A model generated the notes under the pieces. It worked only from the letters and a program-made list of their open reading frames with translations, ran no database searches and was not told the DNA's origin. Positions 1-8,326 of a DNA stretch of 15,714 nt are shown here, piece after piece. Made by a program: the position numbers and the translations under genes. Position 1 is the first letter of the stretch. Every line of letters begins with the position of its first letter. This stretch comes from a virus (taxonomy: Duplodnaviria; Heunggongvirae; Uroviricota; Caudoviricetes): IMG/VR virus record IMGVR_UViG_2778261414_000014. One strand, written 5' to 3'.

Positions 1-33
1 TAAAGCTAAGTTCGGACTGAAAGGAGCAAGTGT

Positions 34-336
34 ATGACGGGCAAAGAGGCAATTATTCATTACCTGGGGACGCATAAGAGCTTCTGTGCACAGGACGTTG
101 CCGCGGTAACAGGTGCAACCGTAACCAGCATAAATCAGGCTGCGGCTAAAATGGCGCGGGCAGGAATCCTGGTCGTTGATGGTAAGGTCTGGCGAACGGT
201 GTATTACCGGTTCGCTACCAGAGAAGAACGGGAAGGAAAGGTGAGCACGAATCTGATTTTTAAGGAGTGTCGCCAGAGTGCCGCGATGAAACGGGTATTG
301 AGGGTATATAAAAGAACATCAATGGGTACACAATGA
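34..336 (+). CDS. ren: Ren-like protein (lambda ren homolog, 100 aa)
   Basis: ATG at 34 preceded by SD AAGGAG (21-26); stop TGA 334-336. Translation MTGKEAIIHYLGTH...ATREEREGK matches my recollection of lambda Ren almost along its full length. Position at the end of a replication region and upstream of nin-type genes fits lambda order. Confidence 0.7.
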   Translation: MTGKEAIIHYLGTHKSFCAQDVAAVTGATVTSINQAAAKMARAGILVVDGKVWRTVYYRFATREEREGKVSTNLIFKECRQSAAMKRVLRVYKRTSMGTQ

Positions 337-403
337 TGAAACAGGTGAGTTGAGTTCAAACTGTAGTACAATTCTCTCCAGTTTGAACAGGAAAGAATAT
401 TCT

Positions 404-736
404 ATGAACCCTTATATTTATCTTGGTGGTGCAATACTTGCAGAGGTCATTGGTACAACCTTAATGAAGTTTTCAGAAGGTTTTACACGGTTATGGCCAT
501 CTGTTGGTACAATTATTTGTTATTGTGCATCATTCTGGTTATTAGCTCAGACGCTGGCTTATATTCCTACAGGGATTGCTTATGCTATCTGGTCAGGAGT
601 CGGTATTGTCCTGATTAGCTTACTATCATGGGGGTTTTTCGGCCAACGGCTGGACCTGCCAGCCGTTATAGGCATGATGTTGATTTGTGCCGGTGTGTTG
701 GTTATTAATTTATTGTCACGAAGCACACCACATTAA
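404..736 (+). CDS. emrE: Small multidrug resistance (SMR) efflux transporter EmrE, 110 aa
   Basis: Track ORF 350-736 contains MNPYIYLGGAILAEVIGTTLMKFSEGF...LLSRSTPH, essentially identical to E. coli EmrE as I recall it. Start placed at the internal ATG at 404 (110 aa, the EmrE length) rather than the upstream in-frame ATG at 350. Four hydrophobic segments with conserved Glu in TM1. EmrE is known to lie in the DLP12 prophage of E. coli K-12. Confidence 0.9.
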   Translation: MNPYIYLGGAILAEVIGTTLMKFSEGFTRLWPSVGTIICYCASFWLLAQTLAYIPTGIAYAIWSGVGIVLISLLSWGFFGQRLDLPAVIGMMLICAGVLVINLLSRSTPH

Positions 737-980
737 AAATAATTTCTTTTAAAAGACTGCAATATGGCGGTTCATATCTTTACATGGGCCGCTTTTGTTA
801 ATGTTTTTAGTTTTTGTGTATTCTTTTGTGCCTTCAAGATTATTGCGTAAGCAAATTGCAATACGATTATTGTTGTATATTCAAGATAATGTGATCTTAA
901 TTGTCTTTTTAAATAAAAATTAAACAAAAATTATATCCCACCACTAAGGTTTATAAAAGCATACGTTAGCAGGTGTCACC

Positions 981-2108
981 ATGAAAAAAGCCATAGCATA
1001 TATGCGATTTTCATCACCAGGTCAGATGTCTGGCGACTCATTAAACCGACAGAGAAGACTTATTGCTGAATGGTTAAAGGTAAATAGTGATTATTATCTT
1101 GATACCATAACATATGAAGATTTAGGATTAAGTGCATTCAAAGGAAAGCATGCACAATCAGGAGCTTTTTCGGAATTTTTAGATGCTATAGAGCATGGTT
1201 ATATATTGCCAGGAACTACATTGTTAGTTGAAAGTCTGGACAGACTTTCAAGAGAAAAAGTCGGTGAAGCGATTGAACGTCTGAAATTGATTTTGAATCA
1301 CGGTATTGATGTTATAACTCTTTGCGACAATACAGTCTATAATATTGACTCTTTGAATGAGCCATATTCATTAATAAAAGCCATACTTATAGCACAAAGG
1401 GCAAATGAAGAAAGCGAGATAAAGTCAAGTCGGGTTAAATTATCATGGAAGAAAAAACGGCAGGATGCACTGGAATCAGGTACGATTATGACGGCGTCTT
1501 GTCCGAGATGGCTCTCCTTAGATGACAAAAGAACGGCTTTTGTTCCAGACCCCGACAGGGTGAAAACTATTGAGCTAATTTTTAAACTCAGGATGGAAAG
1601 GCGCTCATTGAATGCAATAGCCAAGTATTTAAATGATCATGCTGTAAAGAATTTCTCAGGAAAAGAAAGTGCATGGGGACCTTCTGTAATTGAAAAATTA
1701 TTAGCGAATAAAGCTCTGATAGGTATATGCGTACCTTCATATCGTGCAAGAGGGAAAGGGATAAGTGAAATCGCTGGCTATTATCCCAGAGTCATATCAG
1801 ATGATTTGTTTTACGCTGTACAGGAAATTCGGTTGGCACCTTTTGGTATTAGCAATAGTAGCAAGAATCCTATGCTAATAAATCTACTTCGAACAGTTAT
1901 GAAGTGTGAGGCTTGTGGTAATACCATGATTGTTCATGCGGTATCTGGAAGTTTGCATGGCTATTATGTTTGTCCGATGAGAAGATTACATCGATGTGAC
2001 AGGCCATCAATAAAGAGAGATTTGGTTGATTATAATATCATTAATGAATTTTTAATTGTAGCAAAATTCAACCAGTTGAAAACAAGAAAGATGCTAATGA
2101 AACTTTAG
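981..2108 (+). pseudogene. ybcK: Large serine recombinase (YbcK-like), N-terminal 375 aa; reading frame broken by a frameshift near 2046-2057
   Basis: N-terminus AIAYMRFSSPGQ carries the resolvase-type catalytic Ser motif; a central recombinase region and a Cys-rich zinc-ribbon-like stretch (CEACGN...YYVCPMRRLHRCD) follow. The ORF stops at TAG 2106-2108 after a short tail, while a second frame stays open from 2048 to 2503 and encodes the coiled-coil-like C-terminal part expected in large serine recombinases. Confidence 0.7.
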
Positions 2109-2503
2109 AGTTAAAAATTATTGAGCTTCAGATGAAAATTAATAATTTAATCGTTGCATTGTCTGTCGCGCCTGAAGTTACCGCTATAGCAGAGAAAATA
2201 AGACTATTAGATAAGGAATTACGAAGAGCTTTGGTATCATTGAAAACTTTGAAGAGTAAAGGTGTAAATTCATTCAGTGATTTTTATGCTATTGACTTAA
2301 CCAGTAAAAATGGACGAGAGTTATGCCGTACACTTGCCTATAAAATATTCGAAAAAATCATAATTAATACGGATAATAAAACCTGTGATATCTATTTTAT
2401 GAATGGCATTGTTTTTAAACACTATCCTTTAATGAAAGTAATATCCGCCCAGCAGGCGATAAGTGCTCTCAAATATATGGTTGATGGTGAGGTTTATTTT
2501 TGA
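2048..2503 (+). pseudogene. ybcK: C-terminal portion of the same serine recombinase, in a shifted frame (track ORF 2132-2503)
   Basis: This frame is open from the stop at 2045-2047 and reads IFNCSKIQPVENKKDANETLELKIIELQMKINNLIVAL... The two pieces together total about 505 aa, the expected size of a large serine recombinase. Restoring one T in the run at 2048-2052 (GAATTTTTAATT) would make one continuous ORF. Confidence 0.55.
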
Positions 2504-2622
2504 GTAATAATCACTTTTTCAACCGTGCTATGGTATGAAAGTAAAGTAACTACTATGATATTAACTATCGAGCAAGAATATCCCCAGGCACTCAACAGGG
2601 CGCAGGTCAACGTGAATCGGTC

Positions 2623-2814
2623 ATGACACGACACCGATTTTGCGGAATCAATGTTGCTTATGAATACAACATCCCGCTTAGTACATGTTCAACACATCAG
2701 CAAATTTTGAACTGGGTGTGGCACTTAACTGAAAAAACATGGATGACACAAAATGTTACTCGTCGCTTCATTGAAGTAGCTTGTGGATATCACAAGCTAG
2801 ACTATCGCCAATGA
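2623..2814 (+). CDS. Hypothetical small protein (63 aa), possibly a gene remnant
   Basis: ORF only; no convincing RBS and no similarity I recognise. Lies in a ~500 bp AT-rich spacer between the recombinase and ybcN. Confidence 0.2.
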   Translation: MTRHRFCGINVAYEYNIPLSTCSTHQQILNWVWHLTEKTWMTQNVTRRFIEVACGYHKLDYRQ

Positions 2815-2857
2815 TATTCAATTTTTGATTTTTTAGTATCAACCTTCCATAATAATG

Positions 2858-2886
2858 TCACCGGAGCTTGAACAACTCCGGTGACT
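2858..2886. other. Perfect 10-bp inverted repeat (GTCACCGGAG / CTCCGGTGAC) with a 9-nt loop
   Basis: Seen directly in the sequence. Weak T-content downstream (CTTCTG), so a possible terminator or protein-binding site. Confidence 0.3.
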
Positions 2887-3004
2887 TCTGCGCATTTAAG
2901 GGGACTTAAATGCGACCACAATCTGAACTCCTTACCTTGTCACAGATGCAGAAATGCACCTGCGATGTCTTGCATCCAGCGTTTGATCTCTGCGGAGGTG
3001 AAGC

Positions 3005-3460
3005 GTGAACCTCCCACAAGATGGCATCAAATTACATCGCGGTAACTTCACCGCTGTCGGTCAGCAGATCCAGACTTATCTGGAAGACGGCAAATGCTTT
3101 CGCATGGTGCTTAAACCGTGGCGCGAGAGACGCAGTCTTTCCCAGAATGCACTCAGCCACATGTGGTACAGCGAAATCAGTGAATACCTCATCAGCAGGG
3201 GGAAATCGTTCGCTACTTCAGCATGGGTAAAAGATGCTCTCAAACACACATACCTCGGTTATGAAACCAAGGACCTGGTTGATGTCGTAACCGGCGAAAT
3301 CACTACTATCCAGTCGTTACGCCATACCTCCGATCTTGGTACCGGAGAGATGTATGTCTTCCTGTGTAAGGTTGAAGCCTGGGCGATGAATATTGGCTGC
3401 CACCTGACTATTCCACAGAGCTGCGAGTTCCAGCTGCTGCGTGACAAGCAGGAGGCGTAA
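3005..3460 (+). CDS. ybcN: NinB/Orf-family recombination protein (YbcN-like, 151 aa)
   Basis: GTG start at 3005 with SD GGAGG at 2993-2997. Size and position (first nin-region gene) correspond to lambda NinB/Orf and to E. coli DLP12 YbcN. Followed by ninE with an overlapping stop/start (TAATG). Confidence 0.8.
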
Positions 3461-3630
3461 TGGCTACACCGCTTATTCGTGTCATGAACGGACACATCTA
3501 CAAAGTACCAAATCGTCGTAAGCGTAAACCTGAGCTGAAGCCATCCGAAATACCAACACTGCTCGGATATACCGCCAGCCTGGTTGATAAAAAATGGTTG
3601 CGACTGGCAGCAAGGAGGAATCATGGCTGA
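3460..3630 (+). CDS. ninE: NinE-like protein (56 aa)
   Basis: Not in the supplied track because it is under 60 aa. ATG 3460 overlaps the ybcN stop. I translated it by hand: [56 protein letters not shown]. Basic small protein in the canonical ninE position. Confidence 0.65.
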   Translation: MATPLIRVMNGHIYKVPNRRKRKPELKPSEIPTLLGYTASLVDKKWLRLAARRNHG

Positions 3631-3913
3631 TTTGAGAAAAGCAGCGCGTAGTCGGGAATGCCAAGTAAGAATCCCTGGCGTATGTAATGGCAACCCTGAA
3701 ACGTCTGTACTGGCACATATCCGGCTGACTGGATTGTGCGGCACCGGTACCAAACCGCCAGACTTGATTGCCACCATTGCATGTTCTGCCTGCCACGACG
3801 AAATCGACCGCCGCACACATTTTGTCGATGCTGCATATGCAAAAGAATGCGCGCTGGAAGGTATGGCGAGAACACAGGTTATCTGGCTGAAAGAGGGGGT
3901 TATTAAGGCGTGA
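3623..3913 (+). CDS. ybcO: YbcO-like nin-region protein (96 aa, Cys-rich, putative nuclease, DUF1364)
   Basis: ATG 3623 with strong SD AAGGAGG (3612-3618). The track ORF begins upstream at 3584 but the SD supports 3623. Translation [23 protein letters not shown]... has several Cys/His, as in the DLP12 ybcO product. Confidence 0.75.
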
Positions 3914-4272
3914 ATACCTACAGCATCACATTACCCTGGCCTCCGAGCAATAATCGCTACTACCGGCATAATCGCGGGCGCACGCACATCAGCGCAGAAG
4001 GGCAGGCATACCGTGATAACGTCGCCCGAATCATCAAAGGCTCCATGCTGGATATCGGCCTGGCTATGCCAGTGAAAATCCGTATTGAGTGCCACATGCC
4101 GGATCGCCGTCGCCGTGACCTGGATAATCTGCAAAAAGCCGCTTTTGACGCACTCACCAAAGCAGGTTTCTGGCTGGATGATGCTCAGGTCGTTGATTAC
4201 CGTGTTGTGAAGATGCCCGTTACCAAAGGTGGGAAGCTGGAGCTGACCATCACCGAACTGGGGAATGAATGA
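3910..4272 (+). CDS. rusA: Holliday junction resolvase RusA (120 aa)
   Basis: GTG start overlapping the ybcO stop. Translation [26 protein letters not shown]...[13 protein letters not shown]...[11 protein letters not shown] matches the RusA family (catalytic Asp-rich motif) and is nearly identical to E. coli RusA as I remember it. Confidence 0.9.
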
Positions 4273-4409
4273 TGTTTGAGTCTTATATGGCAGAACGTCT
4301 TCGCCACCGCTGGATGCGCCTGCGCTTATATCGTTTTCCTGGTTCTGTTTTGACCGATTACCGGATACTGAAGAATTACGCCAAAACACTGAAAGGAGCT
4401 GCCGCATGA
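4269..4409 (+). CDS. ylcG: YlcG-like small protein (46 aa)
   Basis: Under 60 aa so absent from the track. ATGATG start at 4269 overlaps the rusA stop; stop TGA 4407-4409 overlaps the start of the next gene. Hand translation [46 protein letters not shown]. Same rusA-ylcG-Q arrangement as in DLP12. Confidence 0.5.
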
Positions 4410-5095
4410 ATACCCAATATTTACAGTATGTCCGCGAGCAACTCATTGTGGCTACCGCTGATTTGAGCGGAGCAACGAAAGGACAGCTTGAAGCCTGGCT
4501 GGAGCATGCACAATTTGATACTGGTACATACAAACGAAAGAAGCCGCGCATTCTGGATGAGGTAACTGGCAGGATGATTACGCTGGATAATCCGCCGATT
4601 TCCGGTAAGCAGTCGTACGCAAAAGGTTCATCCATTGCACTGGTCAGCCAGGTTGAGTTCTCAACCTCGTCATGGCGCCGCGCGGTTCTGTCTCTCGAAG
4701 AACATCAGAAAGCGTGGTTGCTGTGGAGTTACAGCGAAAGTGTTCGCTGGGAACATCAGGTCACCATAACGCAGTGGGCATGGAGCGAGTTTAAGACTCT
4801 GTTGGGTACCAGGAAAATTGCAGGTAAGACACTGGAACGTTTGAAGAAGTTGATCTGGCTGGCGGCACAGGATGTGAAGAACGAGCTGGCAGGGCGTAAG
4901 ACCTATGAATACCAGGAGCTGGCATCACTGGTGGGAGTGACATCAAAAAACTGGTCTGAGACATTTACTGAACGCTGGGTTGCAATGAAACACATTTTTC
5001 TACAGCTTGATAGCCAAGCTTTATTGCTTTTAACGAAAACACGTTCAAAACAAAAGACCACATTTTCACAGCAAGATATTGCAAAACTGGATTAA
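4406..5095 (+). CDS. Putative late-gene antiterminator Q (229 aa), assigned mainly by position
   Basis: ATG 4406 with SD AAGGAG (4392-4397); translationally coupled to ylcG (ATGA). Sits exactly where lambdoid phages carry Q: after rusA/ylcG and before a terminator-rich leader and the lysis cassette. It does not resemble lambda Q or the short Q21-type proteins that I can recall, so the family is unassigned. Confidence 0.5.
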   Translation: MNTQYLQYVREQLIVATADLSGATKGQLEAWLEHAQFDTGTYKRKKPRILDEVTGRMITLDNPPISGKQSYAKGSSIALVSQVEFSTSSWRRAVLSLEEHQKAWLLWSYSESVRWEHQVTITQWAWSEFKTLLGTRKIAGKTLERLKKLIWLAAQDVKNELAGRKTYEYQELASLVGVTSKNWSETFTERWVAMKHIFLQLDSQALLLLTKTRSKQKTTFSQQDIAKLD

Positions 5096-5163
5096 AAATC
5101 ATATATTTTATGTAAATCTGATATTTTGCCAATGTTGTACGCACTGGCAGTAATCCAAATTCA

Positions 5164-5200
5164 AGCCCGAGGTTTAAAGCCTTGGGCTTTTCTGTTTCTG
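5164..5200 (+). terminator. Intrinsic terminator 1 in the Q-lysis intergenic leader (tR'-like)
   Basis: Stem AAGCCCGAGG (5164-5173) pairs with CCTTGGGCTT (5181-5190), one G-U wobble, 7-nt loop, followed by TTCTGTTTCTG. Confidence 0.6.
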
Positions 5201-5276
5201 AACGGTGAGTAGCCTTCCAACCTACCCCAGCCAGGGGGTCTTCAGCTGTTGAGTTGATATTGCTTAGCCCTCTGTT

Positions 5277-5302
5277 GCCAGCTACATGCTGGCTTTTTTA
5301 TT
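5277..5302 (+). terminator. Intrinsic terminator 2 in the Q-lysis intergenic leader
   Basis: Perfect stem GCCAGC (5277-5282) / GCTGGC (5288-5293), loop TACAT, followed by TTTTTTATT (5294-5302). Confidence 0.7.
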
Positions 5303-5404
5303 CCAGGCTTGTGGGGAGCATCAACTCCGTGCTTTGTCGTTAAATTACCCCGTGAGCCTGATTTCTGACATTTAACGTCCCGGCCTTTTGTCGGCGGCGA
5401 AACA

Positions 5405-5722
5405 TTGGCTATTCATATGCACGAAAAAGAGAGCCTTGCCGGAGCGTTCTGGCTCGTTTTGCTGATCATCGCAGGTTGGGGCGGTCTGGTCCGCTACCTG
5501 ATAGATGTGAAGCAGAGTAAAGCAACGTGGAGTTGGATAAATGCTCTGGCTCAAATAGTGGTATCAGGATTCACCGGTGTTATTGGTGGCCTGATCAGCA
5601 TCGAAAGTGGATTCAGTATTTACATGATTCTCGCGACAGCGGGGATTAGTGGTGCGATGGGTTCGGTTGCACTGACGTACTTCTGGGAACGACTGACAGG
5701 GGTGAAAAATGCAAAATCTTAA
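5405..5722 (+). CDS. Holin with three predicted transmembrane segments; possible dual start (TTG 5405 / ATG 5417)
   Basis: Three hydrophobic stretches (AGAFWLVLLIIAGWGGLV, WINALAQIVVSGFTGVIGGLI, FSIYMILATAGISGAMGSVAL) and a charged C-terminus ([11 protein letters not shown]); immediately precedes and overlaps the endolysin gene. The first ATG is at 5417 (101 aa); the track uses TTG at 5405 (105 aa). Confidence 0.75.
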   Translation: MAIHMHEKESLAGAFWLVLLIIAGWGGLVRYLIDVKQSKATWSWINALAQIVVSGFTGVIGGLISIESGFSIYMILATAGISGAMGSVALTYFWERLTGVKNAKS

Positions 5723-6185
5723 TCCTCAGCGTAAAGCCTTCCTCGATATGTTGGCGTGGTCAGAAGGAACGGATAACGGGCGACAACCGACACGTAACCA
5801 CGGTTATGATGTTATTGTTGGCGGCGAACTGTTTACTGATTACTCCGATCACCCTCGCAAACTTGTCACGCTACACCCCAAACTCAAATCAACAGCCGCC
5901 GGACGTTATCAGCTTCTTTCACGCTGGTGGGATGCTTACCGTAAACAGCTTGGTTTGAAAGACTTCTCCCCCAAAAGCCAGGACGCAGTGGCATTGCAGC
6001 AGATTAAAGAGCGTGGTGCTTTACCTATGATTGATCGCGGTGATATCCGTCAGGCAATCGACCGTTGCAGTAATATCTGGGCTTCACTGCCGGGCGCTGG
6101 TTATGGTCAGTTCGAGCATAAGGCTGACAGCCTGATTGCAAAATTCAAAGAAGCTGGCGGAACGGTCAGAGAGAGTGAGGTATGA
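5709..6185 (+). CDS. R: Endolysin, lambda R-type lytic transglycosylase (158 aa)
   Basis: Translation ...[145 protein letters not shown] is nearly identical to lambda R as I recall it. Start overlaps the holin 3' end. Confidence 0.92.
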
Positions 6186-6643
6186 GCAGAATAACCGCGA
6201 TTATCTCCGCTCTGCTCATCTGCATCATCGTCTGCCTGTCATGGGCTGTTAATCATTACCGTGATAACGCCATTACCTACAAAGCCCAGCGCGACAAAAA
6301 TGCCAGAGAACTGAAGCTGGCGAACGTGGCAATTACTGACATGCAGATGCGTCAGCGTGATGTTGCTGCGCTCGATGCAAAATACACGAAGGAGTTAGCT
6401 GATGCGAAAGCTGAAAATGATGCTCTGCATGATGATGTTGCCGCTGGTCGTCGTCGGTTGCACATCAAAGCAGTCTGTCAGTCAGTGCGTGAAGCCACCA
6501 CCGCCTCCGGCGTGGATAATGCAGCCTCCCCCCGACTGGCAGACACCGCTGAACGGGATTATTTCACCCTCAGAGAGAGGCTGATCACTATGCAAAAACA
6601 ACTGGAAGGAACCCAGAAGTATATTAATGAGCAGTGCAGATAG
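6182..6643 (+). CDS. Rz: Spanin inner-membrane subunit Rz (153 aa)
   Basis: ATG overlaps the R stop (ATGA). N-terminal transmembrane segment followed by a coiled-coil-like periplasmic domain; same length as lambda Rz and high similarity to it. Confidence 0.88.
6402..6584 (+). CDS. Rz1: Spanin outer-membrane lipoprotein subunit Rz1 (60 aa), embedded in Rz in the +1 frame
   Basis: Translation [60 protein letters not shown] has a lipobox (VVGC) and a proline-rich mature part, almost identical to lambda Rz1. Confidence 0.85.
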
Positions 6644-6668
6644 AGCTGCCCATATCGATGGGCAGCTC
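6643..6668. terminator. Near-perfect palindrome between convergent Rz and bor (putative bidirectional terminator)
   Basis: GAGCTGCCC (6643-6651) pairs with GGGCAGCTC (6660-6668); the 8-nt loop contains ATCGAT. No clean T-tract on either side, so terminator function is uncertain. Confidence 0.4.
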
Positions 6669-6674
6669 ATGCAA

Positions 6675-6968
6675 TTATTGTGAGCAATACACACGCGCTT
6701 CCAGCGGAGTATAAATGCCTAAAGTAATAAAACCGAGCAATCCATTTACGAATGTTTGCTGGGTTTCTGTTTTAACAACATTTTCTGCGCCGCCACAAAT
6801 TTTAGCTGCATCGACAGTTTTCTTCTGCCCAATTCCAGAGACGAAGAAATGGTGGGTGATGGTTTCCTTTGGTGTTACTGCTGCCGGTTTGTTTTGAACA
6901 GTAAACGTCTGTTGGGCACATCCTGTAATAAGCAGGGCCAGCGCAGTAGCGAGTAGCATTTTTTTCAT
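6675..6968 (-). CDS. bor: Bor outer-membrane lipoprotein (serum-resistance moron, 97 aa)
   Basis: Translation MKKMLLATALALLITGCAQQTFTVQNKPAAVTPKETITHHFFVSGIGQKK... has a signal peptide and lipobox (ITGC) and is near-identical to lambda Bor. Opposite strand to the lysis genes, as in lambda. Confidence 0.92.
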   Translation of the reverse strand: MKKMLLATALALLITGCAQQTFTVQNKPAAVTPKETITHHFFVSGIGQKKTVDAAKICGGAENVVKTETQQTFVNGLLGFITLGIYTPLEARVYCSQ

Positions 6969-7101
6969 GGTGTTATTCCCGATGCTTTTTAAAGTTCGCA
7001 GAATCGTATGTGTAGAAAATTAAACAAACCCTAAACAATGAGTTGAAATCTCATATTGTTAATATTTATTAATGTATGTCAGATGCGAAGGATCGTCACT
7101 G

Positions 7102-7167
7102 TATTCCCGGATTAACTATGTCCGCAGCCCTGACAGGGAAACTCCTCTGCGGGAGTGTCCGGGAATA
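7102..7167. other. Nested inverted-repeat structure (9-bp outer stem, 6-bp inner stem) in the bor-ybcV intergenic region
   Basis: Outer TATTCCCGG (7102-7110) / CCGGGAATA (7159-7167); inner CCGCAG (7122-7127) / CTGCGG (7147-7152); CCCTG.CAGGG in between. No flanking T-tract. Confidence 0.35.
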
Positions 7168-7259
7168 ATTAATAACGATGCACACAGGGTTTAGCGCGTA
7201 CACGTATTGCATTATGCCAACGCCCCGGTGCTGACACGGAAGAAACCGGACGTGATGAT

Positions 7260-7670
7260 TTAGCGTGGAAAGATTTGTGTAGTGTTCTGAATGCTCTCAG
7301 TAAATAGTAATGAATTATCAAAGGCATAGTAATATCTTTTATGTTCGTGGATATTTGTAACCCATCGGAAAACTCCTGCTTTAGCAAGATTTTCCCTGTA
7401 TTGCTGAAATGTGATTTCTCTTGATTTCAACCTATCATAGGACGTTTCTATAAGATGCGTATTTCTTGAGAATTTAACATTCACAACCTTTTTAAGTCCT
7501 TTTATTAACACAGTGTTATCGTTTTCTAACACAATGTGAATATTATCTGTGGCTAGATAGTAAATATAATGTGAGACATTGTGACGTTTTAGTTCAGAAT
7601 AAAACAATTCACAGTTTAAATCTTTTCGCACTTGATCGAATATTTCTTTAAAAATGGCAACCTGAGCCAT
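7260..7670 (-). CDS. ybcV: DUF1398-family small protein (YbcV/YdfO-like, 136 aa)
   Basis: Track ORF 7260-7793 extends to an upstream TTG. The ATG at 7670 has a good SD (GGAAGG, 8-nt spacer) and gives 136 aa. The C-terminal half (...[34 protein letters not shown]...[48 protein letters not shown]) matches my memory of E. coli YdfO/YbcV. AT-rich. Confidence 0.7.
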
Positions 7671-7955
7671 TGGTAAAACCTTCCATGTGATACGAGGGCG
7701 CGTAGTTTGCATTATCGTTTTTATCGTTTCAATCTGGTCTGACCTCTTTGTGTTTTGTTGATGATTTATGTCAAATATTAGGAATGTTTTCAATTAATAG
7801 TATTGGTTGCGTAACAAAGTGCGGTCCTGCTGGCATTCTGGAGGGAAATACAACCGACAGATGTATGTAAGGCCAACGTGCTCAAATCTTCATACAGAAA
7901 GATTTGAAGTAATATTTTAACCGCTAGATGAAGAGCAAGCGCATGGAGCGACAAA

Positions 7956-8162
7956 ATGAATAAAGAACAATCTGCTGATGATCCCTCCGTGGATCTGATT
8001 CGTGTAAAAAATATGCTTAATAGCACCATTTCTATGAGTTACCCTGATGTTGTAATTGCATGTATAGAACATAAGGTGTCTCTGGAAGCATTCAGGGCAA
8101 TTGAGGCAGCGTTGGTGAAGCACGATAATAATATGAAGGATTATTCCCTGGTGGTTGACTGA
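7956..8162 (+). CDS. ybcW: Hypothetical small protein (YbcW-like, 68 aa)
   Basis: ATG 7956 with SD GGAG (7943-7946, 9-nt spacer). AT-rich, divergent from ybcV. Same size and location as DLP12 ybcW. Two antisense track ORFs overlap it but lack an RBS. Confidence 0.55.
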
Positions 8163-8326
8163 TCACCATAACTGCTAATCATTCAAACTACTTAACCTGT
8201 GACAGAGCCAACACGCAGTCTGTCACTGTCAGGAAAGTGGTAAAACTGCAACTCAATTACTGCAATGCCCTCGTAATTAAGTGAATTTACAATATCGTCC
8301 TGTTCGGAGGGAAGAACGCGGGATGT

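What the first reader, a model, noticed from the sequence alone, without database searches (positions are those of the whole stretch)
2040..2060. Large serine recombinase disrupted by a 1-nt frameshift in a T-run
The 375-aa ORF has the serine-recombinase catalytic N-terminus, recombinase domain and zinc ribbon, but ends 20 codons after ...DYNIINE. A second frame, open from 2048, encodes the coiled-coil-type C-terminus that large serine recombinases use for synapsis and directionality. The two frames join at GAATTTTTAATT (2046-2057); one extra T would give a single ~505-aa protein. Interpretation: a pseudogenised large serine recombinase, or a sequencing error in an intact one. A recombinase lacking its coiled-coil domain would probably be inactive or deregulated.
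Basis: partly seen in the sequence, partly recalled or inferred. Interest (0 to 1): 0.5.

Follow-up and report, generated by a model that had tools for sequence, protein, structure and literature searches.

The report
Recombinase pseudogene with IS629 excision scar
A prophage recombinase gene (ybcK) of E. coli O157:H7 is broken by a real 4-base deletion, most likely the scar left when an IS629 insertion sequence was excised; it is an ordinary, lineage-specific pseudogene that public annotation already flags as frameshifted.

Summary
ORF 981-2108 (375 aa) carries the Resolvase, Recombinase and Zn-ribbon domains. The -1 frame, open at 2048-2503, encodes the last 151 residues of YbcK, the 508-aa large serine recombinase of DLP12-type lambdoid prophages.

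The lesion is not a 1-nt slip in a T-run. It is a 4-bp deletion (TGCT; placement ambiguous within 2048-2051) relative to the intact gene.

It is not a sequencing error. The same allele occurs in 22 of 5,426 complete E. coli genomes, all of those named O157:H7 (EC4115/TW14359/SS52 group). 1,116 genomes have the intact junction. NCBI's annotation pipeline (PGAP) already marks the gene 'frameshifted'.

Six related O157:H7 genomes carry IS629 exactly at this point (ATTAATGAAT^TGCT, target-site duplication GAAT). A seventh genome has lost GAAT, immediately left of the same point. The excision-enhancer gene iee is intact in six deletion-allele genomes. I therefore read the deletion as an imprecise IS629 excision scar.

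At least 19 of the 22 genomes also carry an intact ybcK copy in another prophage, so little function is likely lost.

Verdict: real, explained, already known in kind; low interest.

The parts
981..2503 (+). Whole ybcK pseudogene (large serine recombinase, 1523 bp instead of 1527 bp).
   Evidence: Identical over all 1523 bp to the SS52 gene that PGAP marks 'recombinase family protein, frameshifted'. It differs from the intact allele at the same locus in O157 strain CDC#03-98 by one synonymous SNP (1679) plus the 4-bp deletion.
981..2108 (+). 5' reading frame: 356 native YbcK residues (catalytic domain, recombinase domain, zinc ribbon), then 19 out-of-frame residues and a stop.
   Evidence: ORF list and translation. 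Pfam PF00239, PF07508 and PF13408. Family-invariant R9, S11, D87, R88, R91 and nearly invariant Cys309/312/331/339 are present.
2048..2503 (+). 3' reading frame (-1 relative to the start) encoding YbcK residues 358-508: coiled-coil hairpin and small C-terminal domain. No longer translated from the ybcK start.
   Evidence: Translation. Alignment to K-12 and other YbcK sequences. AlphaFold model of intact YbcK has helices 368-397 and 402-429, then a helix, three strands and a helix.
2046..2053 (.). The scar, GAATTTTT. GAAT (2046-2049) is the 4-bp target that IS629 duplicates in sister strains. The 4 missing bases (TGCT; equivalently TTGC or GCTT) belong between 2049 and 2050, with alignment ambiguity over 2048-2051.
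   Evidence: Alignments with intact alleles. IS629-occupied allele ATTAATGAAT[IS629, 1310 bp]GAATTGCTTTTT in F7386 and five other genomes. Second scar ATTAAT^TGCTTTTT in CEC96047.
340..2850 (.). Context: a low-GC (30-40%) cargo island, emrE (404-736) plus ybcK, inside roughly 50% GC phage DNA between ren and ybcN. ybcL-ybcM of K-12 are absent here.
   Evidence: Composition profile, annotation of the near-identical SS52 locus, BLAST against K-12 DLP12.

Best explanation
The feature is a dead copy of ybcK, the large serine recombinase carried as cargo in the nin region of DLP12-type lambdoid prophages. A 4-bp deletion after codon 356 shifts the frame, so translation stops 19 codons later. The product lacks the coiled-coil motif and the C-terminal part of the DNA-binding region.

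The most likely origin of the deletion has two steps. First, IS629 inserted at ATTAATGAAT^TGCT, duplicating GAAT, in an ancestor within O157:H7 clade 8. Second, it was excised imprecisely by the IS629 transposase plus the excision enhancer IEE. The excision removed the element, one GAAT copy and the adjoining TGCT, and the ends were rejoined at a 1-2 nt T microhomology.

Shown: the deletion, its distribution, the IS-occupied allele, the second scar, and intact iee in the lineage.
Inferred: the order of events (IS first, then scar) and the involvement of IEE.

The loss is probably neutral, because the same genomes keep an intact ybcK in another prophage.

The confidence of 0.78 applies to the whole statement including the IS629-scar origin. 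That the feature is a real pseudogene caused by a 4-bp deletion I hold at above 0.95.
For: Lesion and its distribution:
- The lesion is a 4-bp deletion.
- The deletion allele is in 22 of 5,426 complete genomes, all of those named O157:H7; the intact junction is in 1,116.
- PGAP annotates the gene as frameshifted.
- Homologues at 41-61% identity are single ORFs of about 505-522 aa covering the whole query.

IS629 at the same point:
- IS629 (1310 bp, target-site duplication GAAT) sits exactly at the deletion point in six genomes.
- CEC96047 has a different 4-bp loss (GAAT) immediately on the other side of the same point.
- My rough estimate is that a random 4-bp deletion in a 1527-bp gene abuts a given point with probability about 0.5%, and here it happened twice.

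Relatedness of the strains:
- All 23 genomes whose paralogous copy is 100% identical to TR01's are either deletion-allele or IS-occupied strains (one search compared).
- A published core-genome tree clusters 9.1Anguil and Balcarce14.2 (IS-occupied) with TW14359 and SS52 (deletion allele) within clade 8 (PMC8553066).

Machinery:
- iee is intact and 100% identical to the Sakai gene in TR01, JEONG-1266, SS52, SS17, TW14359 and EC4115.
- IS629 copies are present nearby in these genomes.

Dispensability:
- An intact paralogue is present in at least 19 of the 22 genomes.
- IS629 has hit this ybcK copy at two further sites in other O157 strains, which is consistent with a dispensable gene.
Against: - Both 4-bp deletions are flanked by short direct repeats (TT..TT and AAT..AAT), so plain replication slippage could also produce them.
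- The IS-first and independent-events scenarios need the same number of events. Only the positional coincidence separates them.
- I did not build a genome-wide phylogeny to show that the scar clade is nested within or sister to the IS-occupied clade.
- CEC96047 does not share the copy-2 SNP of the other two groups, so its IS history may be separate.
- Excision was not observed experimentally.
- No function of YbcK is known, so 'neutral loss' is an inference.
Confidence: 0.78

Rival explanations
1. Spontaneous 4-bp deletion by replication slippage between the TT..TT repeats of TTGCTT, unrelated to IS629. The IS insertion in sister strains and the CEC96047 deletion would be independent events at a fragile AT-rich spot.
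For: The deletion is flanked by a 2-nt direct repeat and the CEC96047 deletion by a 3-nt repeat. IS629 has inserted at several sites in this AT-rich gene, so insertions here are not rare.
Against: It requires three independent events within about 8 nt of a 1527-nt gene in closely related strains. None of the 1,116 genomes with the intact junction belongs to the subgroup that holds the two derived alleles. One end of each deletion coincides with the IS boundary or its duplicated target, as expected for IS-adjacent deletions (PMC9943667).
Confidence: 0.17
2. Sequencing or assembly error in an intact gene.
For: The site lies next to a T5 homopolymer. One record (SS17) shows T6, which restores the frame. 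The window itself is a mosaic not found contiguously in any complete genome.
Against: The missing bases are TTGC, not a homopolymer length change. The same allele is in 22 complete genomes deposited as separate assemblies. The SS17 assembly has many more homopolymer differences than its relatives: 139 against 7-26 relative to SS52 (PMC5552260). Its T6 is therefore the more likely error.
Confidence: 0.02
3. The split gene is still expressed usefully. Either the 375-aa protein lacking the coiled coil acts as a deregulated recombinase, or ribosomes slip -1 on A_TTT_TTA (2048-2054) to make a 507-aa protein (…NEFFNCSK…).
For: The catalytic, recombinase and zinc-ribbon parts are untouched, and no other inactivating change has accumulated. 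A TTTTTA run lies at the junction.
Against: The allele is a very recent derivative of an intact gene (one synonymous SNP), so no frameshift signal can have evolved. The heptamer is not a canonical X_XXY_YYZ site (my reading of the sequence). RNA downstream has no unusual structure (z = 0.56). The truncation removes about 150 conserved residues that every homologue keeps. IS629 has destroyed the same copy in other strains.
Confidence: 0.03

Closest known systems
YbcK (b0544) of the E. coli K-12 cryptic prophage DLP12
   Same: Same gene. It is about 99% identical in DNA, with the same upstream neighbours (ren, emrE) and the same downstream nin genes (ybcN, ninE, ybcO, rusA, ylcG, Q).
   Different: The window copy lacks 4 bp and is split into two frames. 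ybcL-ybcM are absent and replaced by about 280 bp of unrelated sequence.
Large serine recombinases / serine integrases (PhiC31, Bxb1, Listeria A118/LI integrase)
   Same: Domain order is the same: resolvase catalytic domain, recombinase domain, zinc ribbon, coiled-coil hairpin. The best structural matches are full-length serine integrase-DNA complexes (9dxd E 9e-19, PhiC31, Bxb1, 4kis).
   Different: Sequence identity is only 13-21%, and there is no sequence-level PDB hit. No att sites, partner directionality factor or activity are known. In DLP12-type prophages the gene is internal cargo, and in K-12 the prophage has its own integrase, intD. In other genera the homologues sit at a prophage edge.
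IEE-promoted IS629 (IS1203) excision scars in enterohaemorrhagic E. coli
   Same: A small deletion lies directly next to an IS629 insertion site, with a short microhomology at the junction, in a lineage that carries IS629 and an intact iee (PMC9943667).
   Different: The excision is inferred from natural allele states, not observed. Whether IEE took part is not shown.

Membership tests
Large serine recombinase (LSR) | N-terminal resolvase-type catalytic domain with the serine nucleophile and conserved Arg/Asp residues | tested here: met
   PF00239 E 5.8e-19. R9, S11, D87, R88, S90 and R91 are invariant in a 34-sequence family alignment and present in the window ORF.
Large serine recombinase (LSR) | Recombinase domain (PF07508) followed by a zinc-ribbon domain with four Cys | tested here: met
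   PF07508 E 1.4e-14 and PF13408 E 9.6e-8. C309, C312, C331 and C339 are nearly invariant.
Large serine recombinase (LSR) | Coiled-coil motif after the zinc ribbon, in frame with the rest of the protein | tested here: not met
   The intact orthologue has a predicted helical hairpin at 368-397 and 402-429. In the window this part is in the -1 frame, after a stop at 2106-2108. The gene belongs to the family by descent but can no longer encode a complete member.
Large serine recombinase (LSR) | Overall fold matches solved serine integrases | tested here: met
   Foldseek top hits, all with probability 1.00: 9dxd, 9dxf and 9dxh (serine integrase complexes), 9tep and 9rah (PhiC31), 9iu2 (Bxb1), 4kis. 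The model has mean pLDDT 81.
Large serine recombinase (LSR) | Site-specific recombination between defined att sites | not testable with these tools
   No att sites or activity are known for YbcK. The 25 listed titles and abstract openings of 35 papers mentioning ybcK showed no recombination function.
IS629 excision scar (IEE-promoted) | The same site is occupied by the IS in close relatives | tested here: met
   Six genomes have IS629 at ATTAATGAAT^TGCT with target-site duplication GAAT. They cluster with deletion-allele strains (PMC8553066).
IS629 excision scar (IEE-promoted) | A deletion endpoint coincides with an IS end or its duplicated target | tested here: met
   The window allele is the left flank up to GAAT joined to the right flank minus TGCT. 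The CEC96047 allele has lost exactly GAAT. Alignment ambiguity is 2-3 nt.
IS629 excision scar (IEE-promoted) | IS629 transposase and iee are present in the lineage | tested here: met
   iee is full length and 100% identical in TR01, JEONG-1266, SS52, SS17, TW14359 and EC4115. IS629/IS1203 copies are annotated in the same genomes. This was not tested in the unknown source genome of the window.
IS629 excision scar (IEE-promoted) | The scar allele derives from the IS-occupied allele (order of events) | tested here: inconclusive
   The two allele classes share a subgroup, but no rooted genome-wide tree was built, so nesting is not shown.

The most novel reading that the evidence does not exclude
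The break is not simply a loss. Either the 375-aa YbcK lacking the coiled coil is a stable, deregulated recombinase, or the T6 allele in strain SS17 is a genuine in-frame revertant (507 aa, LLF replaced by FF). The second case would imply selection to keep this orphan prophage recombinase working.
Probability: 0.04. Interest if true: 0.45.

Novelty: already known. Interest (0 to 1): 0.18.

Why it matters
It matters little for biology at large. It is one more decaying cargo gene in a defective O157:H7 prophage, and RefSeq already labels it frameshifted.

Its modest value is as a clean natural allelic series at one nucleotide position: intact, IS629-occupied, and two different excision scars. 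This illustrates how IS629 and the excision enhancer IEE create small frameshifting deletions in enterohaemorrhagic E. coli. It also gives a simple marker for the EC4115/TW14359/SS52 subgroup of clade 8.

It is also a caution. A frameshift beside a homopolymer is not necessarily a homopolymer slip or a sequencing error.

Tried and rejected
- Sequence search of intact YbcK against PDB chains gave no hit at E <= 0.01. Fold comparison was needed instead.
- Pfam on the downstream frame alone found nothing.
- An Rfam scan of the whole window found nothing at gathering thresholds.
- Folding the RNA downstream of the junction, to look for a frameshift stimulator, gave -9.4 kcal/mol, z = 0.56, no better than shuffles. 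I rejected programmed frameshifting.
- A search for the whole window in complete E. coli genomes found no contiguous match. This exposed the mosaic nature of the window rather than its source.
- A literature search for ybcK (35 papers; I saw only the titles and abstract openings of the 25 listed) showed no evidence on recombinase function.
- I considered whether strain F7386 (IS-occupied) and 7386WT/7386Nal (scar allele) are one isolate caught in both states. The names probably belong to different collections (my recollection; a literature search did not settle it), so I did not use this.
- I considered the SS17 T6 allele as a true revertant. I rejected it as the likelier reading because that assembly has an excess of homopolymer differences.

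Full report
**What is in the window**

ORF 981-2108 on the + strand encodes 375 aa. It ends 19 residues plus a stop after ...DYNIINE. The -1 frame is open from 2048 to a stop at 2501-2503. Pfam finds Resolvase, Recombinase and Zn_ribbon_recom in the 375-aa product and nothing in the downstream frame.

**Identity of the gene**

The region lies between ren/emrE and ybcN-ninE-ybcO-rusA-ylcG-Q. This is the nin region of a DLP12-type lambdoid prophage. The locus is 99.9% identical to E. coli O157:H7 SS52, where PGAP annotates 981-2503 as 'recombinase family protein, frameshifted'.

In K-12 the orthologue ybcK (b0544) is one ORF of 1527 bp, 508 aa. The two window frames align to it end to end.

Homologues at 41-61% identity in Atlantibacter, Yersinia, Pantoea, Erwinia, Kluyvera and Citrobacter are single proteins of about 505-522 aa covering the whole query. 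The undivided gene is therefore the conserved state.

**Nature of the lesion**

Alignment with intact alleles shows AATGAATTGCTTTTTAATTG in K-12, in the O157 strain CDC#03-98 at the same locus, and in the paralogous copy. The window has AATGAATTTTTAATTG. Four bases are missing. They can be written as TTGC, TGCT or GCTT because of flanking Ts, and they belong between window 2048 and 2051.

The net effect is a -1 frame offset, which is why one extra T would restore a frame. The event itself was not a 1-nt change in the T-run.

Apart from this deletion, the pseudogene differs from the intact O157 allele by one synonymous SNP at 1679. The inactivation is therefore recent.

**Not a sequencing error**

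A 50-mer that can only match the deletion allele is present in 22 of 5,426 complete E. coli genomes. All of those named are O157:H7 strains, including EC4115, TW14359, SS52, TR01 and JEONG-1266. The corresponding intact junction is present in 1,116 genomes.

One record, SS17, has T6 instead of T5. This gives an in-frame 507-aa protein. That assembly shows 139 homopolymer differences relative to SS52, against 7-26 for TW14359 and EC4115 (PMC5552260). I regard the T6 as a probable homopolymer error.

**What the truncation removes**

I built an AlphaFold model of intact YbcK from a 34-sequence alignment (mean pLDDT 81). It has the following parts:
- the catalytic domain;
- a long E helix;
- the recombinase domain;
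- zinc-ribbon strands at 307-330;
- a helix at 346-358;
- two long antiparallel helices at 368-397 and 402-429;
- a small domain of one helix, three strands and one helix at the C-terminus.

Foldseek against the PDB returns full-length serine integrase complexes first (9dxd E 9e-19; PhiC31, Bxb1, LI integrase 4kis). A plain sequence search of PDB chains found nothing.

The frame breaks after residue 356, so the coiled-coil hairpin and everything after it are lost. From established knowledge of serine integrases, the coiled coil mediates synapsis and directionality control. A protein cut here would probably be inactive. That last step is inference, and no activity of YbcK is known.

**Origin of the deletion**

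In one search some O157:H7 genomes showed IS629 (annotated IS1203) inside this gene. In F7386 the junctions read ATTAATGAAT[IS629, 1310 bp]GAATTGCTTTTTAATTG. This is an insertion into the intact sequence with a 4-bp target-site duplication, GAAT. Six genomes have this exact junction: F7386, 147, 148, 149, Balcarce_14.2 and 9.1_Anguil.

The window allele equals the left flank up to GAAT joined to the right flank without TGCT. The four missing bases lie immediately to the right of the insertion point.

A seventh genome, CEC96047, reads ATTAAT^TGCTTTTT. It has lost exactly GAAT, immediately to the left of the same point. It also carries IS629 at another position of the gene. This second scar allele is unique to that genome.

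So three different derived states meet at one nucleotide position in closely related strains.

**Relatedness and machinery**

All 23 genomes whose paralogous ybcK region is 100% identical to TR01's are either deletion-allele or IS-occupied strains. Other O157 genomes differ by one mismatch (one search compared).

An independent core-genome tree places 9.1Anguil and Balcarce14.2 in one clade-8 cluster with TW14359 and SS52 (PMC8553066).

The excision-enhancer gene iee (Sakai ECs_1305) is present, full length and 100% identical, in TR01, JEONG-1266, SS52, SS17, TW14359 and EC4115. IS629 copies lie in the neighbouring prophages.

[quoted passage not shown] It also states that IEE joins ends at microhomologies (PMC9943667; see also the bioRxiv review 10.1101/2023.06.07.543989).

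I therefore conclude, at roughly 0.8, that the 4-bp deletion is the scar of an imprecise IS629 excision. The remaining rival is independent slippage between the TT repeats. It needs the same number of events but leaves the double positional coincidence unexplained.

**Consequences**

At least 19 of the 22 deletion-allele genomes carry a second ybcK in another lambdoid prophage. That prophage has the K-12-like emrE-ylcJ-ybcK-ybcL-ybcM arrangement. The copy is 100% identical to the intact 508-aa copy of TR01.

IS629 has also disrupted the window-type copy at nt ~183 in Z1813/Z1814 and at nt ~639 in CEC96047.

Together these points indicate that this copy is dispensable and is decaying neutrally.

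I rejected programmed frameshifting for three reasons:
- the allele is a very recent derivative of an intact gene;
- the site is not a canonical slippery heptamer;
- the downstream RNA folds no better than shuffled sequence.

**What YbcK-type proteins do elsewhere**

In Atlantibacter, Yersinia and Erwinia, homologues at 51-59% identity lie directly after the tail-fibre-assembly gene at the edge of a prophage. In Atlantibacter this is next to ssrA-smpB. That position suits a prophage integrase.

In DLP12-type phages the gene is internal, inside a 30-40% GC island together with emrE, and K-12 DLP12 has its own integrase, intD. This suggests the E. coli gene is inherited cargo or a remnant rather than the prophage's integrase. 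This paragraph is inference from context only.

**Verdict**

Public annotation already flags the feature, and both the gene family and the mutational process are known. Interest is low.

Noticed in passing
window 1-15714; junction about 8486-8765: The window is a mosaic of two O157:H7 prophages. Positions 1-8765 are 99.875% identical to the SS52 prophage at 1.557 Mb. Positions 8486-15714 are 100% identical to the EC4115 prophage at 1.19 Mb. No complete RefSeq E. coli genome holds the window contiguously. The order (left part of the downstream prophage joined to the right part of the upstream one) is what a tandem duplication or unequal crossover would give, or an assembly chimera.
   Followed up: partly
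window 9171-9178: In EC4115, and apparently in the other best-matching O157 genomes (whose matches are likewise split into two or three pieces with ISEc8 annotated under them), an ISEc8 (IS66 family) element interrupts this late region exactly here. The window has the empty site with a single copy of the 8-bp target. It is either the pre-insertion state or a precise excision.
   Followed up: partly
window 9340-11326 and about 15042-15305: The terminase large-subunit gene is split into two overlapping frames (9340-9681 and 9632-11326) and is annotated 'frameshifted' in EC4115. The major capsid gene is truncated and runs straight into a tail gene. The prophage is defective for more reasons than ybcK.
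   Followed up: partly
window 402, 889, 897, 938, 964: These bases differ from SS52 and CDC#03-98, the two alleles of this prophage copy aligned here, and no genome in the collection matched 900-2600 exactly. They match the state of the paralogous copy (K-12 and TR01 copy 2). This looks like a short gene-conversion tract upstream of ybcK.
   Followed up: partly
window 2543-2822: About 280 bp with no match in K-12 DLP12 replace the 1.8-kb ybcL-ybcM segment that follows ybcK in K-12 and in the paralogous O157 copy.
   Followed up: no
window about 340-2850: emrE and ybcK sit in a 30-40% GC island flanked by roughly 50% GC phage genes, consistent with foreign cargo inserted between ren and the nin genes.
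   Followed up: no
L011 1451-2760; L012 1020-2329; L015 564-1873: IS629 has inserted into this same ybcK copy at three or more different sites in O157:H7 strains: gene nt 1069/1070 (duplication GAAT), about 639 (AAT, opposite orientation) and about 183 (AGG).
   Followed up: yes
L005 1501-1551 (SS17, NZ_CP008805): SS17 has T6 where the other 21 deletion-allele genomes have T5, giving an in-frame 507-aa 'recombinase family protein' (WP_038430923.1). It is probably a homopolymer error, given 139 homopolymer differences of that assembly relative to SS52. A true revertant is not excluded.
   Followed up: partly
L007 8001-9530 with tmRNA at 10070-10432; L009 8001-9530; L013 8001-9548: YbcK homologues in Atlantibacter, Yersinia and Erwinia lie directly after tail-fibre-assembly genes at a prophage edge. 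In Atlantibacter this is next to ssrA-smpB, which suggests the family includes working prophage integrases.
   Followed up: partly
one search hits H309-H311 (strains 111, 112, FDAARGOS_293): In three O157 genomes the iee gene itself matches in two pieces with an IS3-family/IS1203 transposase annotated between them. The excision enhancer appears to be interrupted by the kind of element it removes. PGAP now names the gene product 'TOTE conflict system archaeo-eukaryotic primase domain-containing protein'.
   Followed up: no
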